From Escherichia phage P896, in sequence record OL451225.1: a stretch of DNA of 64,000 nt; one strand, given 5' to 3'. Below, in pieces: positions 24,899-47,061 of the stretch. The notes under the pieces are model-generated. The model saw only the letters and a program-made list of their open reading frames with translations, was not told where the DNA came from and searched no databases. The first letter of the stretch is position 1, and each line of letters opens with the position of its first letter. Position numbers and translations under genes: made by a program.

Positions 24899-25909
24899 TT
24901 AACGATAATAGGAATTATGGTTGTCAAGATATACCTCTTCAACAAACTTGTCCCAGAACTTCATGTCCACCTTCGCAGGCATACCGTTCTTAGCAGCCTG
25001 AATGGCCAGGACTTCAACTTCATCGACGGTATTTTCCAACAGGCCTTGGACTACTTTAAAAGGCATATCACCAGCTTTTATTGCTTTAATAACAGAAGCA
25101 TTTTTAAGCGGATAAACCAAATCGCCGGTTTGATAGATTTCCTTCAACTGGTATCCAGCACGATAAGCATGGCTCAGAGCTTTCCAGTCAATACCTTCAT
25201 TGGCTTCTGCCTTACGAGCACGTTCACCATATTCGGCATCGAGCTTATTCAGAGATTGCTTGAGCTCGATTAAAGACAGGGTGGTTTGGTACTTACGTCC
25301 AAGAACAGTATAGAACGTTTGAGGACCTGTTTTCTCGTGGTTATGGAATACCCATTCACAGAACTCATTTTCAGGGAGTCTGTGTTTGATATCTTCTACC
25401 TTAGTGCGACGTTGCTTAGTCGAACCGTCTTCTTGATAATCGACCCACTGTTCAGGAATCTGGTTAACGATTGTCAGTACACCACGCAGTGCAGCCAATC
25501 GAGAACCTTTAACACCATATTTGGAAGCTTGCTTACGGACATACCCCAAATAGGCTTTCATGTTAGTTGTATAGAACCGCGAACGGTTATCCTGAATAAA
25601 CTTCCATACATCTGGTAAATCGGATTTGACAACCAGGTCAGCCGGTGTGTGAATCATGTCCAGGGCAACGGTTTCGCCATCGGCTGCCAGTTTAAAGAAA
25701 TATTTCAGACTATAAAGTTCATGGTCAACATCATCTTTTGTATTTTTGGTAGCCGTGTTATTCGTGTTCAGGTTTGTATGGTTCATCGCGGTTCCGAGCA
25801 GGATATCTCGCGGATGAGGAACGAAGATTTCTTTAAAATCAACATCAGATTCCGGAGTACTTGTTCCATAAAGGTGGGAGCCAAAATATCCCTTCATAAC
25901 AGTTCTCAT
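24899..25909 (-). CDS. Pol-beta-superfamily nucleotidyltransferase, 336 aa
   Basis: N-terminal GS-x10-DVD (YFGSHLYGTSTPESDVDF), the minimal nucleotidyltransferase motif; ATG with GAGGA RBS. Confidence 0.6.
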   Translation of the reverse strand: MRTVMKGYFGSHLYGTSTPESDVDFKEIFVPHPRDILLGTAMNHTNLNTNNTATKNTKDDVDHELYSLKYFFKLAADGETVALDMIHTPADLVVKSDLPDVWKFIQDNRSRFYTTNMKAYLGYVRKQASKYGVKGSRLAALRGVLTIVNQIPEQWVDYQEDGSTKQRRTKVEDIKHRLPENEFCEWVFHNHEKTGPQTFYTVLGRKYQTTLSLIELKQSLNKLDAEYGERARKAEANEGIDWKALSHAYRAGYQLKEIYQTGDLVYPLKNASVIKAIKAGDMPFKVVQGLLENTVDEVEVLAIQAAKNGMPAKVDMKFWDKFVEEVYLDNHNSYYR

Positions 25910-26368: not shown

Positions 26369-26929
26369 TTAAGAGTTCATAGTTGGGATAACAGAGTTCA
26401 GATAAGAGACTAAAACTTTTAGCTCGTCTTTAGTAAATACAACTTCACTTTCACCGTCATGTCTTTGGACAATGGACAACAAGTCACGGCCGTTATGTTG
26501 ATGCACAGTCAGTTCAGTATTATAATCTAATTCCTCTTCATCGCCTTCAAACGTTTCGCTAGAGCGAATCAGTGCGTCTTGACCAGGGACTTTCCATTCA
26601 ACTTCTGGCTTGCATTCTTCCTGGAACAGTTTGAAAATACAATCAAAGAATTTATCAGAATCGCTGATGCTCAGACATTCAATACCATTTTCTAAATTAA
26701 ACCCGTTTTCGTTTTTATAGATATAGGCATACATATCATCATTGATATCAACAGGAGCACTAGCACGACCATTAAGATAATCGTGTCTATCCAAAACCAT
26801 TAAATCATAAAGCGGTTTAATATCAGCGATAGTCAGTACGATTTTATCGTCTTCTTGACAAAGCTCAATTGCGTTATTAACTACTTCAGCGGTCAGTTCG
26901 CCAAACAATTCAGTTGTTTCAATAATCAT
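26369..26929 (-). CDS. hypothetical acidic protein, 186 aa
   Basis: ORF track; ATG start. Confidence 0.55.
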   Translation of the reverse strand: MIIETTELFGELTAEVVNNAIELCQEDDKIVLTIADIKPLYDLMVLDRHDYLNGRASAPVDINDDMYAYIYKNENGFNLENGIECLSISDSDKFFDCIFKLFQEECKPEVEWKVPGQDALIRSSETFEGDEEELDYNTELTVHQHNGRDLLSIVQRHDGESEVVFTKDELKVLVSYLNSVIPTMNS

Positions 26930-26939
26930 TTTCTGTTCC

Positions 26940-27155
26940 TCAACGGTTATGTTTTAAAATACTATAAAGAGCTTCTACTTGGCTTGCATCCAGGTAAATA
27001 ACATCATCATCTTGCTCAATGGAAATCCCACCAGTATTACCTTTAACAAAATTACATTCGCACACTTCAACTGGACGGTATACGTCACCAACTGGATGCT
27101 CAGGCTCCAGAACAATCACACCATTTTCAGAATTACCACTTGGGTCATATAACAT
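26940..27155 (-). CDS. hypothetical protein, 71 aa
   Basis: ORF 26940..27230 begins on TTG; trimmed to ATG at 27155 with GAGGAAA RBS. Confidence 0.4.
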   Translation of the reverse strand: MLYDPSGNSENGVIVLEPEHPVGDVYRPVEVCECNFVKGNTGGISIEQDDDVIYLDASQVEALYSILKHNR

Positions 27156-27246
27156 TACAGTTTCCTCGCTAACCATGAAAAGAATAAACCAATTAAAACA
27201 GGCCCTACAGCCATTGTTAACCAAGCCCAAGGTTCAAGATAGTAAA

Positions 27247-27504
27247 TCATCTCATGCTCCTATGCCAACAGTTTCTTGGCTCACGTTTAAAAATTTCATC
27301 ATGCATTGATTGACAACCAACACAATATATCACGCCTTTAATCGCTTGTCTCCGCGCTTCAGGAATTTTTTCGTCGCAGTCAAAACAGAATTCAGCAGAC
27401 TCCCTTTCAACTGCAACTTGTGCTCTCGCATGGGTGATAGCGGCCTGTACAACCGCTTCCATCTCTAACTGTTCAGCACCATCTTTTGCAAATCCAACAG
27501 CCAT
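27247..27504 (-). CDS. TraR/DksA-family C4 zinc-finger protein, 85 aa
   Basis: CFDCDEKIPEARRQAIKGVIYCVGCQ matches the TraR/DksA C4 signature (C-x2-C-x3-IPxxR-x9-C-x2-C). Confidence 0.6.
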   Translation of the reverse strand: MAVGFAKDGAEQLEMEAVVQAAITHARAQVAVERESAEFCFDCDEKIPEARRQAIKGVIYCVGCQSMHDEIFKREPRNCWHRSMR

Positions 27505-28140: not shown

Positions 28141-28195
28141 TCAGTAGTTGATGGGATAATAGTACACCCTTTTTATGGTGATGTAAACCCCTAAA
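28141..28195 (-). promoter_or_regulatory. early promoter cassette (-35 GTTTACA, 17-bp spacer, -10 TACTAT, leader ATTATCCCATCAACTACTGAGGAGA)
   Basis: Read on the minus strand upstream of gene 27927..28130. Confidence 0.55.
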
Positions 28196-28202
28196 TGAAA
28201 AA

Positions 28203-28228
28203 AGGTCCACCCGAAGGCAGACCTTTTG
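28203..28228 (-). terminator. hairpin with UUCG loop followed by UUUUUUCAUUU
   Basis: Imperfect 8-bp stem (two G-U pairs) plus T-run directly after the stop of gene 28231..28614. Confidence 0.5.
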
Positions 28229-28230
28229 AA

Positions 28231-28614
28231 TTACTCTAGTGTTAACAGATACTTAGTCTGAAAGAAAACTCCAACGATATCGTCCAGAGTCGATTGAATA
28301 GCCTTGGGTACAACTTTATAGACTCTTTCCGAGCTTTTAATCATTTCATCTAAAAACAAAATTGTATCTTTCGGCAAGTCCGAGGCGGACGGTAATGCAG
28401 CTTTGTATTGTTTCCCGCTGTAACCTAACCATTGCTCACTGAACTGGTCGAGTGGACCTTGGATTTCTGTGAAGTAGAAATCATAAGCTTTATGGCGGGC
28501 GTAACTTTTGGTTTCAAGATGGGCGGACTTAAAATAAGCCAAAGAGACTAACAACCACCCAATATATGAATCCACCTCAGACCCACGACCCGTTACGAAA
28601 TCATCAAATTTCAT
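28231..28614 (-). CDS. hypothetical protein, 127 aa
   Basis: ORF track; ATG start. Confidence 0.5.
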   Translation of the reverse strand: MKFDDFVTGRGSEVDSYIGWLLVSLAYFKSAHLETKSYARHKAYDFYFTEIQGPLDQFSEQWLGYSGKQYKAALPSASDLPKDTILFLDEMIKSSERVYKVVPKAIQSTLDDIVGVFFQTKYLLTLE

Positions 28615-28897
28615 CTTCCAATTTTACCTTCATTAATTTAGCGTACTCTCTCGCCGCAGCTTTACCATCGCTTTTGCAGGTAATTTCAGTTTCGCATTGG
28701 CTTTTGTTGTTCCATTCAGTCTTGATAAACGCCCAGAACTGTTCGGATTGGTGCACGCTTGGTTCTTTGAATTGCGAATAAATCTTCATCGCACTATCTG
28801 CATATTGGGTAAACTTCCCCTCTGTTGCAGAGGACAGATTTGGGCCTAAACAACCCAGGAGTATTAGACTTAATGAAAGTCCTCGAATAAGGTCCAT
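28604..28897 (-). CDS. rI: lysis-inhibition regulator RI-like periplasmic protein
   Basis: 97 aa with signal-anchor; SEQFWAFIKTEW, conserved Cys pair and YAKLMKVKLEDE resemble recalled T4 RI; position upstream of tk as in T4. Confidence 0.55.
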   Translation of the reverse strand: MDLIRGLSLSLILLGCLGPNLSSATEGKFTQYADSAMKIYSQFKEPSVHQSEQFWAFIKTEWNNKSQCETEITCKSDGKAAAREYAKLMKVKLEDEI

Positions 28898-28969
28898 AAG
28901 GACTCCTATTGTTGGTCATGATTACGCTTTGCAGCCTTAACATAGCGGAATACTAGTTAGTAACTGTAT

Positions 28970-29245
28970 TTATAGACGTTTAAAATTAAAGCAATACTCT
29001 GAAAATAAACTTGCAAAATTACGTTCAACCCAGACCCGTTGTTTTGGACTGGTAATCGTTGACAAATAGTATGCTTGTTGCAGGCTTATTCCGTTTTTAT
29101 TGGGGCACTCTTTGTTGAACGAGTGATAGGTACTTGCAACGATTTCGACTTCGCGCTCATACCTTTCCTGGTCCTGTTGCATAGGAACAAAAACCAAAAC
29201 CAGGAATATCAAAATAGAGATATACGTCCAAACCTTGTATACCAT
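28970..29245 (-). CDS. small membrane protein, 91 aa
   Basis: ORF track; N-terminal hydrophobic helix. Confidence 0.45.
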   Translation of the reverse strand: MVYKVWTYISILIFLVLVFVPMQQDQERYEREVEIVASTYHSFNKECPNKNGISLQQAYYLSTITSPKQRVWVERNFASLFSEYCFNFKRL

Positions 29246-46908: not shown

Positions 46909-46985
46909 TGGTCGGGGTGGTGGGATTCTAACCCACAACCTACGGTTTAGAAGACCGTTGCTCTATACAATTAAGCTACACCCCG
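46909..46985 (-). tRNA. tRNA-Arg (anticodon UCU), CCA encoded
   Basis: Minus strand folds as a cloverleaf: acceptor CGGGGUG/CACCCCG, anticodon loop CUUCUAA, T-loop GGUUAGAAUCC, 3' ACCA. Confidence 0.75.
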
Positions 46986-47061
46986 GGTGGCCCCATCCGG
47001 ACTTGAACCGGAAACCTGCCAGTTATGAGCCGGATGCTCTAACCAATTGAGCTACAGGGCC
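46986..47061 (-). tRNA. tRNA with CAU anticodon (Ile2-type or Met), directly abutting tRNA-Arg
   Basis: GGCCCUGUAGCUCAAUUGGUUAGAGC D-arm, anticodon loop CUCAUAA, T-arm UCCGGUUCAAGUCCGGA; acceptor has two G-U pairs and the anticodon stem one mismatch. Confidence 0.6.

What the first reader, a model, noticed from the sequence alone, without database searches (positions are those of the whole stretch)
27247..27504. TraR/DksA-type zinc-finger protein: candidate modulator of host RNA polymerase
The motif CFDCDEKIPEARRQAIKGVIYCVGCQ is the C4 zinc finger of TraR/DksA proteins, which act through the RNA polymerase secondary channel. A phage copy could redirect host transcription early in infection.
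Basis: partly seen in the sequence, partly recalled or inferred. Interest (0 to 1): 0.45.

Follow-up and report, generated by a model that had tools for sequence, protein, structure and literature searches.

The report
Phage TraR/YbiI-type zinc-finger protein gene
This is a real 85-residue early gene of a T4-like coliphage whose product is a small DksA/TraR-family zinc-finger protein, most like E. coli YbiI, that probably binds the host RNA polymerase; the family assignment is already in public records, and its role is untested.

Summary
Window 27247-27504 (minus strand) is a complete 85-aa ORF containing CFDCDEKIPEARRQAIKGVIYCVGCQ. It passes Pfam's threshold for zf-dskA_traR (PF01258, 36.3 bits against 24.9). 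Its predicted fold matches E. coli YbiI and TraR bound to RNA polymerase.

The window is a T4-like Gaprivervirus (about 95% identical to phage P479). The gene lies in the mobD-rI-tk early region, fourth cistron behind a T4-type early promoter.

The protein is closer to YbiI than to TraR. It keeps TraR's IPEARR polymerase-contact motif. It keeps the second Asp and the Ala of the DxxDxA tip motif at about the same distance from the zinc finger. The first Asp is replaced by Phe, and there are two extra N-terminal residues. It also has an invariant C-terminal tail, RNCWHRSMR, that TraR lacks.

The most likely mechanism is a ppGpp-independent, TraR-like binder of the host RNA polymerase secondary channel, made early in infection. 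This is inferred and not shown.

An identical protein is already annotated 'TraR family zinc finger protein'. [quoted passage not shown] The finding is ordinary and of low interest. The only open points are the non-canonical tip and the conserved tail.

The parts
27247..27504 (-). Complete CDS of an 85-aa DksA/TraR-family C4 zinc-finger protein of the YbiI-like branch. Its ATG overlaps the TAA stop of the upstream gene (TAATG).
27469..27504 (-). N-terminal tip, residues 1-12 (MAVGFAKDGAEQ), invariant in most of the phage clade. F5-x-x-D8-x-A10 occupies the place of TraR D3-x-x-D6-x-A8. Predicted to enter the polymerase secondary channel.
   Evidence: motif defined in PMC9239242
27313..27387 (-). 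C4 zinc ribbon, residues 40-64: CxxC-N17-CxxC (C40, C43, C61, C64).
27349..27366 (-). IPEARR, residues 47-52, identical to TraR 44-49. In TraR these are the contacts to the beta' rim helices (R48) and beta'Si3 (E46, R49).
   Evidence: TraR data
27250..27291 (-). C-terminal tail, residues 72-85 (FKREPRNCWHRSMR), invariant in the phage clade, absent from TraR, and related to the YbiI tail NRRGSKDSQLR. Its last codons also carry the AGGAG ribosome-binding site (27257-27261) and the ATG (27248-27250) of the downstream 31-aa ORF.
28159..28188 (-). T4-type early promoter, GTTTAC-N14-ggtgTActaT, at the head of the operon (mobD.5, a 78-aa ORF, DUF7438/mobD.3, then this gene).
   Evidence: consensus as quoted in the annotation of phage SA79RD
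28200..28227 (-). Intrinsic terminator-like hairpin (12 pairs followed by a T run) that closes the upstream rI / rI.-1 unit just before the early promoter.
   Evidence: a terminator is annotated at the same place in Merlin and SA79RD

Best explanation
The gene encodes a small, single-helix member of the DksA/TraR zinc-finger family, of the YbiI-like branch. It is carried as an accessory early gene by a T4-like (Gaprivervirus) coliphage. The proposed mechanism has four steps. (1) The gene is transcribed within the first minutes of infection from a T4-type early promoter, as the fourth, translationally coupled cistron of a small-gene operon. (2) The protein folds into an N-terminal helix, a C4 zinc ribbon and a short C-terminal helix. 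[quoted passage not shown] (4) Without needing ppGpp, it shifts the kinetics of initiation so that promoters with short-lived open complexes (rRNA and ribosomal-protein promoters) are inhibited. That would free polymerase and resources for the phage, as shown for lambda Orf73. Steps 1 and 2 rest on sequence and computed structure. Steps 3 and 4 are inferred by homology. The first Asp of DxxDxA is replaced by Phe and there are two extra N-terminal residues, so the inhibitory activity may be weaker or different from that of TraR. The invariant basic tail probably adds a contact that TraR lacks.
For: - Family and fold: Pfam PF01258 above threshold; the best NCBIfam matches are PRK11019 (YbiI type) and TIGR02419 (phage/plasmid TraR); PHROG 54.
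- AF2 model (pLDDT 72.5): helix 9-30, zinc ribbon, helix 62-71. Foldseek top hits are YbiI 2KGO (3e-5), TraR in its RNA polymerase complex 5W1S_M / 6N57_M (TM 0.47-0.56), then DksA.
- IPEARR is identical to TraR 44-49, and I47, P48, R51, R52 and G57 are invariant across all 33 aligned sequences, TraR and YbiI included; E49 is invariant across the 38 phage-clade and bacterial YbiI-type homologues (E. coli YbiI itself has Q). These TraR residues are the mapped rim-helix and Si3 contacts.
- D8-x-A10 lies 30 residues before the first Cys; TraR D6-x-A8 lies 29 before it, and YbiI D8-x-A10 also 29.
- X. bovienii Gp34, which lacks D3, still binds RNA polymerase and complements a dksA-null strain, with lower activity.
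- E. coli YbiI rescued dksA-null auxotrophy when overexpressed, reported as data not shown (PMC2613031).
- Early promoter and terminator: with matching annotations in relatives.
- Purifying selection: 42 clusters at 90% identity share the protein, with synonymous changes in the tail.
Against: - The DxxDxA motif is not complete. Both Asp residues are needed for full activity in TraR and lambda Orf73, and N-terminal extensions were associated with lower activity.
- Scores fall below the curated NCBIfam cut-offs for the TraR subfamily (52.9 against 59.7), the TraR equivalog (30.3 against 108) and the YbiI equivalog (76.4 against 96).
- The authors who tested YbiI thought it more likely to act in iron metabolism.
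- T4-like phages already shut off host transcription by other means (Alc, ADP-ribosylation; established knowledge). T4 itself lacks the gene, and Mosigvirus carries only a decayed remnant, so the gene is dispensable.
- No experiment on any member of this clade was found.
Confidence: 0.6

Rival explanations
1. It binds the secondary channel but acts as a passive plug or competitor, not as a TraR-like allosteric regulator. By occupying the channel it would keep host DksA/ppGpp, GreA and GreB off the polymerase. Phage transcription would then be insulated from the host stringent response, or transcript cleavage and elongation would be altered.
For: The binding motif IPEARR is intact, but the effector tip lacks the first Asp and carries Gly-Phe instead. 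In DksA the tip aspartates are needed for function but not for binding. Rnk is a precedent for a channel binder that only competes.
Against: The Asp and Ala that are kept (D8, A10) are nearly invariant, which suggests that the tip is functional. Gp34 lacks D3 and still regulates. YbiI reportedly complements a dksA-null strain, which a pure blocker should not do.
Confidence: 0.17
2. It is a YbiI-like protein with a target other than RNA polymerase, for example a metal-linked or iron-linked role like that suggested for E. coli ybiI. Alternatively it is an adaptor whose conserved C-terminal tail docks another phage or host protein.
For: It is closest to YbiI. YbiI's function is unknown and was thought to be iron-related. 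The tail RNCWHRSMR is the most conserved part and has no counterpart in TraR. VP882 TraR works in a complex with a partner, QisA. His25, Cys79 and His81 appear together in the phage clade.
Against: The mapped TraR contact residues for RNA polymerase are conserved exactly. No neighbouring gene is conserved between the T4-like genera and the jumbo phages that share the protein, so there is no syntenic partner. The iron link for YbiI rests only on gene neighbourhood.
Confidence: 0.15
3. It is a non-functional or decaying passenger ORF in a hyperplastic region of the genome.
For: The gene is absent from T4. It is reduced to a 54-aa fusion remnant in Mosigvirus and related contigs. It lies among small accessory ORFs.
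Against: The full-length protein is conserved across several Straboviridae genera and in Asteriusvirus jumbo phages, with invariant functional motifs and synonymous substitutions.
Confidence: 0.03

Closest known systems
E. coli YbiI (PRK11019; NMR structure 2KGO)
   Same: It is the best sequence and fold match. The two share the N-terminus MAxG(F/W)AxDxA, with D-x-A about 29-30 residues before the first Cys, and the IP(E/Q)ARR motif. Both carry a basic C-terminal tail ending in S-x-(L/M)-R.
   Different: Identity is only about 35%, and the score is below the equivalog cut-off (76.4 against 96). The tail is RNCWHRSMR instead of NRRGSKDSQLR, and the protein is 85 aa against 88. It is phage-encoded and behind an early promoter. 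YbiI's own function is unknown.
F-plasmid TraR (PDB 5W1S, 6N57)
   Same: Both have a single N-terminal helix, a C4 zinc ribbon and a C-terminal helix. IPEARR is identical. The second Asp and the Ala of the tip motif are at the equivalent distance from the zinc finger.
   Different: The first Asp (D3) is replaced by Phe5, and there are two extra N-terminal residues. A 12-residue conserved tail extends beyond the TraR C-terminus. Identity is about 25%. Scores are below the cut-offs of TIGR02419 and PRK13715.
Phage TraR homologues with shown activity: lambda Orf73, P2 Orf82, VP882 Orf61, VHML Orf8, X. bovienii Gp34 (PMC9239242)
   Same: All are small phage-encoded family members expressed from early or lytic operons. 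All are proposed to divert host transcription without ppGpp. Gp34 likewise lacks D3, and Orf82 lacks A8.
   Different: Those come from temperate phages or prophages, while this one is from a strictly lytic T4-like phage. None of the three whose sequences were available here (TraR, lambda Orf73, P2 Orf82) has the YbiI-type tip or tail. No member of this clade has been tested.
DksA
   Same: Same zinc-finger superfamily and same presumed binding site on the polymerase.
   Different: This protein has no coiled-coil domain and no ppGpp-binding region, and it is 85 aa against 151. The NF033459 match is 13 bits.

Membership tests
Pfam PF01258 zf-dskA_traR (DksA/TraR C4 zinc finger superfamily) | Profile score at or above the gathering threshold | tested here: met
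   36.3 bits against 24.9, E 5.8e-9, residues 38-66
Pfam PF01258 zf-dskA_traR (DksA/TraR C4 zinc finger superfamily) | Four Cys arranged as CxxC-N17-CxxC | tested here: met
   C40, C43, C61 and C64 are invariant in 38 homologues
TraR-like regulators (as defined in PMC9239242) | Length near 73 aa, with a single N-terminal helix, a globular zinc domain and a C-terminal helix | tested here: met
   85 aa; AF2 gives H9-30, zinc ribbon and H62-71; Foldseek hits TraR chains at TM 0.47-0.56
TraR-like regulators (as defined in PMC9239242) | DxxDxA motif at the N-terminal tip | tested here: not met
   The protein has F5-A-K-D8-G-A10, so only the second Asp and the Ala are kept, at 30 against 29 residues from the first Cys. 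In the 148 further cluster representatives examined, 63 have (F/W/Y)xxDxA and 25 have DxxDxA.
TraR-like regulators (as defined in PMC9239242) | Equivalents of R48 (rim helices), R49 and E46 (beta'Si3) | tested here: met
   E49, R51 and R52 lie within IPEARR, which is identical to TraR; both Arg are invariant across the alignments
TraR-like regulators (as defined in PMC9239242) | C-terminal helix that contacts beta Si1 | tested here: inconclusive
   A helix 62-71 is predicted, but its sequence is unlike TraR 58-73 and it is followed by an extra tail. The contact itself cannot be tested here.
TraR-like regulators (as defined in PMC9239242) | Binds RNA polymerase, inhibits rrnB P1 without ppGpp, and complements a dksA-null strain | not testable with these tools
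   Needs biochemistry and genetics. The only indirect support is the 'data not shown' report for YbiI.
NCBIfam TIGR02419 C4_traR_proteo (phage/conjugal plasmid TraR subfamily) | Score at or above the curated cut-off | tested here: not met
   52.9 against 59.7 bits
NCBIfam PRK11019 (YbiI equivalog) | Score at or above the curated cut-off | tested here: not met
   76.4 against 96 bits. It is the best-scoring model but below the cut-off.
YbiI-like branch (defined here by alignment) | N-terminus MAxG(F/W)AxDxA, plus a basic C-terminal tail ending S-x-(L/M)-R | tested here: met
   MAVGFAKDGA and ...RNCWHRSMR; intermediates such as P0069 (...NRKVWHRSMR) link the two tail types
DksA | N-terminal coiled coil and ppGpp-site residues; equivalog score | tested here: not met
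   13.2 bits against 105; the protein has only one helix before the zinc finger

The most novel reading that the evidence does not exclude
The YbiI-type proteins, including this phage clade, could be a functionally distinct class of secondary-channel factors. The aromatic-Gly tip (G4-F5 in place of the first Asp) and the invariant basic tail (RNCWHRSMR) would give an effect on RNA polymerase different from that of TraR or DksA. The tail might reach the beta lobe, sigma region 1.1 or DNA; it might recruit a partner; or, with His25, Cys79 and His81, it might form a second metal site. If so, lytic T4-like and jumbo phages would carry a previously uncharacterised way of controlling host polymerase, and the role of E. 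coli YbiI would become testable.
Probability: 0.15. Interest if true: 0.55.

Novelty: already known. Interest (0 to 1): 0.2.

Why it matters
If the protein does act on E. coli RNA polymerase, strictly lytic T4-like and jumbo phages would use the same ppGpp-independent route already shown for lambda, P2 and F-plasmid factors, in addition to the classical T4 takeover proteins. It would also give a handle on E. coli YbiI, whose function is unknown. As it stands, the gene is a routine, already annotated accessory gene. Only the half-canonical tip and the strictly conserved tail go beyond what public annotation already says.

Tried and rejected
- **Conserved partner gene.** VP882 TraR works with QisA, so I ran tblastn with the seven neighbouring proteins against the loci of Merlin, PBECO4, Hallingskeid, SA79RD and T4. 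None travels with the TraR-like gene across genera, so a two-gene module was rejected.
- **Tail conservation as a by-product.** I considered whether the tail is conserved only because it overlaps the ribosome-binding site and start of the downstream ORF. This was rejected: PBECO4 has no overlapping downstream gene (its stop is TAA), it uses TCT instead of AGC for Ser83, and several other codons differ synonymously.
- **Second copy.** A search of the window for another DksA/TraR-type gene found none.
- **Internal promoters.** No middle (MotA-box) or late promoter lies directly upstream of the gene. The nearest late motif, TATAAATA, is at 28967-28974, before rI.
- **Literature.** The first search for 'YbiI' returned only ytterbium chemistry. 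Narrower searches found only the 2009 remark on YbiI and nothing experimental on T4-like DksA-like proteins.
- **Structure job.** It was rerun on alignment A2.
- **Plus-strand ORFs.** ORFs of 52 and 96 aa overlap the gene on the plus strand. I treated them as mechanical ORFs only: no family search was run on them, and they run against the orientation of all neighbouring genes.

Full report
**Observation.** The ORF listing shows a complete ORF at 27247..27504 on the minus strand: ATG start, 85 aa, stop included (sequence). The coordinates are exact. The strand is that of every neighbouring gene.

**Family.**
- Pfam PF01258 (zf-dskA_traR) matches at E 5.8e-9, 36.3 bits against a gathering score of 24.9.
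- In NCBIfam the best model is PRK11019, the YbiI-type 'DksA/TraR family C4-type zinc finger protein' (76.4 bits, cut-off 96). Next come TIGR02419 'phage/conjugal plasmid C-4 type zinc finger protein, TraR family' (52.9, cut-off 59.7), the TraR equivalog (30.3, cut-off 108) and DksA (13 bits). So the protein is below every narrow cut-off.
- PHROG 54 'DksA-like zinc-finger protein' matches at 2e-20.
- Among solved structures the best sequence hits are YbiI (2KGO, 1.2e-9) and TraR in its RNA polymerase complexes (5W1S, 6N57; about 1e-4).
- An AlphaFold2 model built on 38 homologues has mean pLDDT 72.5. It shows helix 9-30, a zinc ribbon, a short helix 49-54 and helix 62-71. Residues 1-6 have pLDDT below 50 and the last 15 residues average about 50-60.
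- Foldseek against the PDB ranks YbiI first (3e-5), then TraR chains from RNA polymerase complexes (TM 0.47-0.56), then DksA.

**Genomic setting.**
- The 3-kb neighbourhood is 95% identical to Escherichia phage P479 and 93% to Shigella phage SP18, a Gaprivervirus of the Tevenvirinae.
- On the minus strand the order is tk, an rI.1-like ORF, rI, rI.-1 (DUF5856), a terminator-like hairpin (28227..28200), then a T4-type early promoter, GTTTAC-N14-ggtgTActaT (28188..28159). After that come mobD.5, a 78-aa ORF, DUF7438 (T4 mobD.3), this gene, a 31-aa hydrophobic ORF, DUF7189, mobD.1, a membrane protein and nrdC.11.
- The early-promoter consensus is the one quoted in the annotation of phage SA79RD, which places an early promoter and a terminator at the same position. 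Merlin has a terminator annotated there too.
- The gene's ATG overlaps the upstream stop (TAATG), which suggests translational coupling.
- No late or MotA-type promoter lies directly upstream of the gene.

**Distribution.**
- The identical protein is in public databases as a cluster of 48 sequences. JGI names it 'phage/conjugal plasmid C-4 type zinc finger TraR family', and phage UPEC01 annotates it 'TraR family zinc finger protein'.
- tblastn finds relatives in 775 phage records: Klebsiella, Escherichia, Acinetobacter, Erwinia, Aeromonas and other large lytic phages. Full-length copies with 60-66% identity occur in jumbo phages of about 350 kb, such as PBECO4 (Asteriusvirus).
- T4 has no such gene at the syntenic mobD-rI locus.
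[quoted passage not shown] The Moon protein (P0007) is 76% identical to this one.
- Mosigvirus phages keep only a 54-aa remnant, the C-terminal half fused to another N-terminus. This remnant is PHROG 25948.

**Anatomy compared with characterised relatives.** Gopalkrishnan et al. 2022 (PMC9239242) define three functional elements of TraR:
- an N-terminal helix with DxxDxA that reaches the active site;
- a C4 zinc domain with R48 (beta' rim helices) and R49 (beta'Si3);
- a C-terminal helix that contacts beta Si1.

Chen et al. 2019 add E46, R49 and K50 at the Si3 interface, and P43 and P45 for binding.

In the protein studied here, IPEARR (47-52) is identical to TraR 44-49. I47, P48, R51, R52 and G57 are invariant across all 33 aligned sequences, TraR and YbiI included. 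E49 is invariant across the 38 phage-clade and bacterial YbiI-type homologues, although E. coli YbiI itself has Q there.

At the tip the protein has M-A-V-G-F5-A-K-D8-G-A10. D8-x-A10 lies 30 residues before the first Cys, against 29 for TraR D6-x-A8 and 29 for YbiI D8-x-A10. So the second Asp and the Ala are kept in place. The first Asp is replaced by Phe (Trp in YbiI), and two further residues precede it.

This (F/W/Y)xxDxA tip is the commoner form among the nearest relatives: 63 of the 148 further representatives of 50%-identity clusters examined, against 25 with DxxDxA.

The published data bear on this directly. D3N and D6N each weaken lambda Orf73. However, X. bovienii Gp34 lacks D3 and P2 Orf82 lacks A8, and both still bind RNA polymerase as well as TraR and complement a dksA-null strain when induced, with lower activity. 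An N-terminal extension was suggested to lower the activity of VHML Orf8. For YbiI itself, Blankschien et al. 2009 reported, as data not shown, that it rescues dksA-null auxotrophy at high expression, although they favoured a role in iron metabolism.

**The tail.** Residues 72-85 (FKRxPRNCWHRSMR) are invariant across T4-like genera and Asteriusvirus, although the rest of the protein drops to 60-65% identity. Codons differ synonymously: AGA/CGT/CGA, AAC/AAT, TGT/TGC, CAT/CAC, AGG/AGA and AGC/TCT. PBECO4 has no overlapping downstream gene. The conservation is therefore at the protein level and is not a by-product of the AGGAG-N7-ATG of the downstream ORF. Bacterial YbiI-type proteins end in NRRGSKDSQLR, and intermediates exist (P0069...NRKVWHRSMR), so the tail is a feature of the YbiI branch. 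TraR, lambda Orf73 and P2 Orf82 have no such tail. Its function is unknown. No neighbouring gene is co-conserved with the protein across genera.

**Mechanism.** The best-supported reading (confidence 0.6) is an early-expressed, ppGpp-independent binder of the host RNA polymerase secondary channel that acts like TraR and lambda Orf73, possibly with weaker or modified activity because of the non-canonical tip. The gene, its conservation, the fold and the promoter motif are shown here. Binding to the polymerase and any effect on promoters are inferred. The rivals are:
- a passive channel plug that excludes DksA and the Gre factors (0.17);
- a YbiI-like function unrelated to RNA polymerase, or an adaptor role through the tail (0.15);
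- a decaying passenger ORF (0.03).

**Novelty and score.** The family assignment is already in GenBank, JGI and PHROG annotation and in a 2015 genome paper, and TraR-like factors of phages are an established kind. No experimental work on the T4-like clade was found. I rate it 'already known', interest 0.2. The most novel reading not excluded by the evidence is that the YbiI-type tip and tail define a distinct class of polymerase effector. I give that a probability of about 0.15 and an interest of about 0.55 if true.

Noticed in passing
L006 (Escherichia phage vB_EcoM_SA79RD, Mosigvirus) 1459-1623; also proteins P0048, P0050, P0058, P0060, P0063: A 49-64-aa ORF keeps only the C-terminal half of the zinc-finger protein (...VIYCVGCQSMHDEIFKREPRNCWHRSMR). 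It is fused to an unrelated N-terminus that resembles the start of the downstream DUF7189 gene. It looks like a deletion remnant that has been given its own family, PHROG 25948.
   Followed up: partly
window 27250-27291 (-), with residue His25 at 27430-27432: His25, Cys79 and His81 are conserved together in the phage clade, where bacterial YbiI proteins have Arg, Ser and Asp. This could be a second metal site, or it could be coincidence.
   Followed up: no
window 26369-26929 (-): The mobD.1 homologue in the same operon matches the Pfam families T4_y05I_N and T4_y05I_C, 'y05I-like putative transcription factor' (E 6e-37 and 2e-19).
   Followed up: no
window 27155-27250 (-) and 26940-27230 (-): A 31-aa hydrophobic ORF (MIYYLEPWAWLTMAVGPVLIGLFFSWLARKL) starts with an ATGA overlap at the stop of the zinc-finger gene, behind an AGGAG site. 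It is 97% conserved in SA79RD. The 96-aa TTG-start ORF that overlaps it is probably too long: the DUF7189 match begins at residue 26 (MLYDPSG...), which agrees with the 216-nt annotation in relatives.
   Followed up: partly
window 28967-28974 (-): A T4 late-promoter motif, TATAAATA, lies about 70 nt upstream of the rI start (rI is 28604-28897). It overlaps the first codons of the 91-aa ORF at 28970-29245.
   Followed up: no
window 28231-28614 (-): The rI.-1 / mobD.6 homologue is labelled 'starvation-inducible transcriptional regulator' in RefSeq relatives, but in Pfam it matches only DUF5856. The name may be over-annotation.
   Followed up: no
window 46909-47061 (-): Two adjacent tRNA genes, tRNA-Arg(TCT) and tRNA-Met(CAT). 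This is a much smaller tRNA set than T4's.
   Followed up: no
window 24899-25909 (-): The nrdC.11 homologue matches Pfam RlaP, an RNA-repair-pathway nucleotidyltransferase of the DNA polymerase beta family (E 2e-11).
   Followed up: no
protein P0033 (145 aa, from a 989-bp metagenomic contig): A homologue reads through the usual stop after ...RNCWHRSMR into 60 further residues. This is probably a sequencing or assembly artefact, or a lost stop codon.
   Followed up: no
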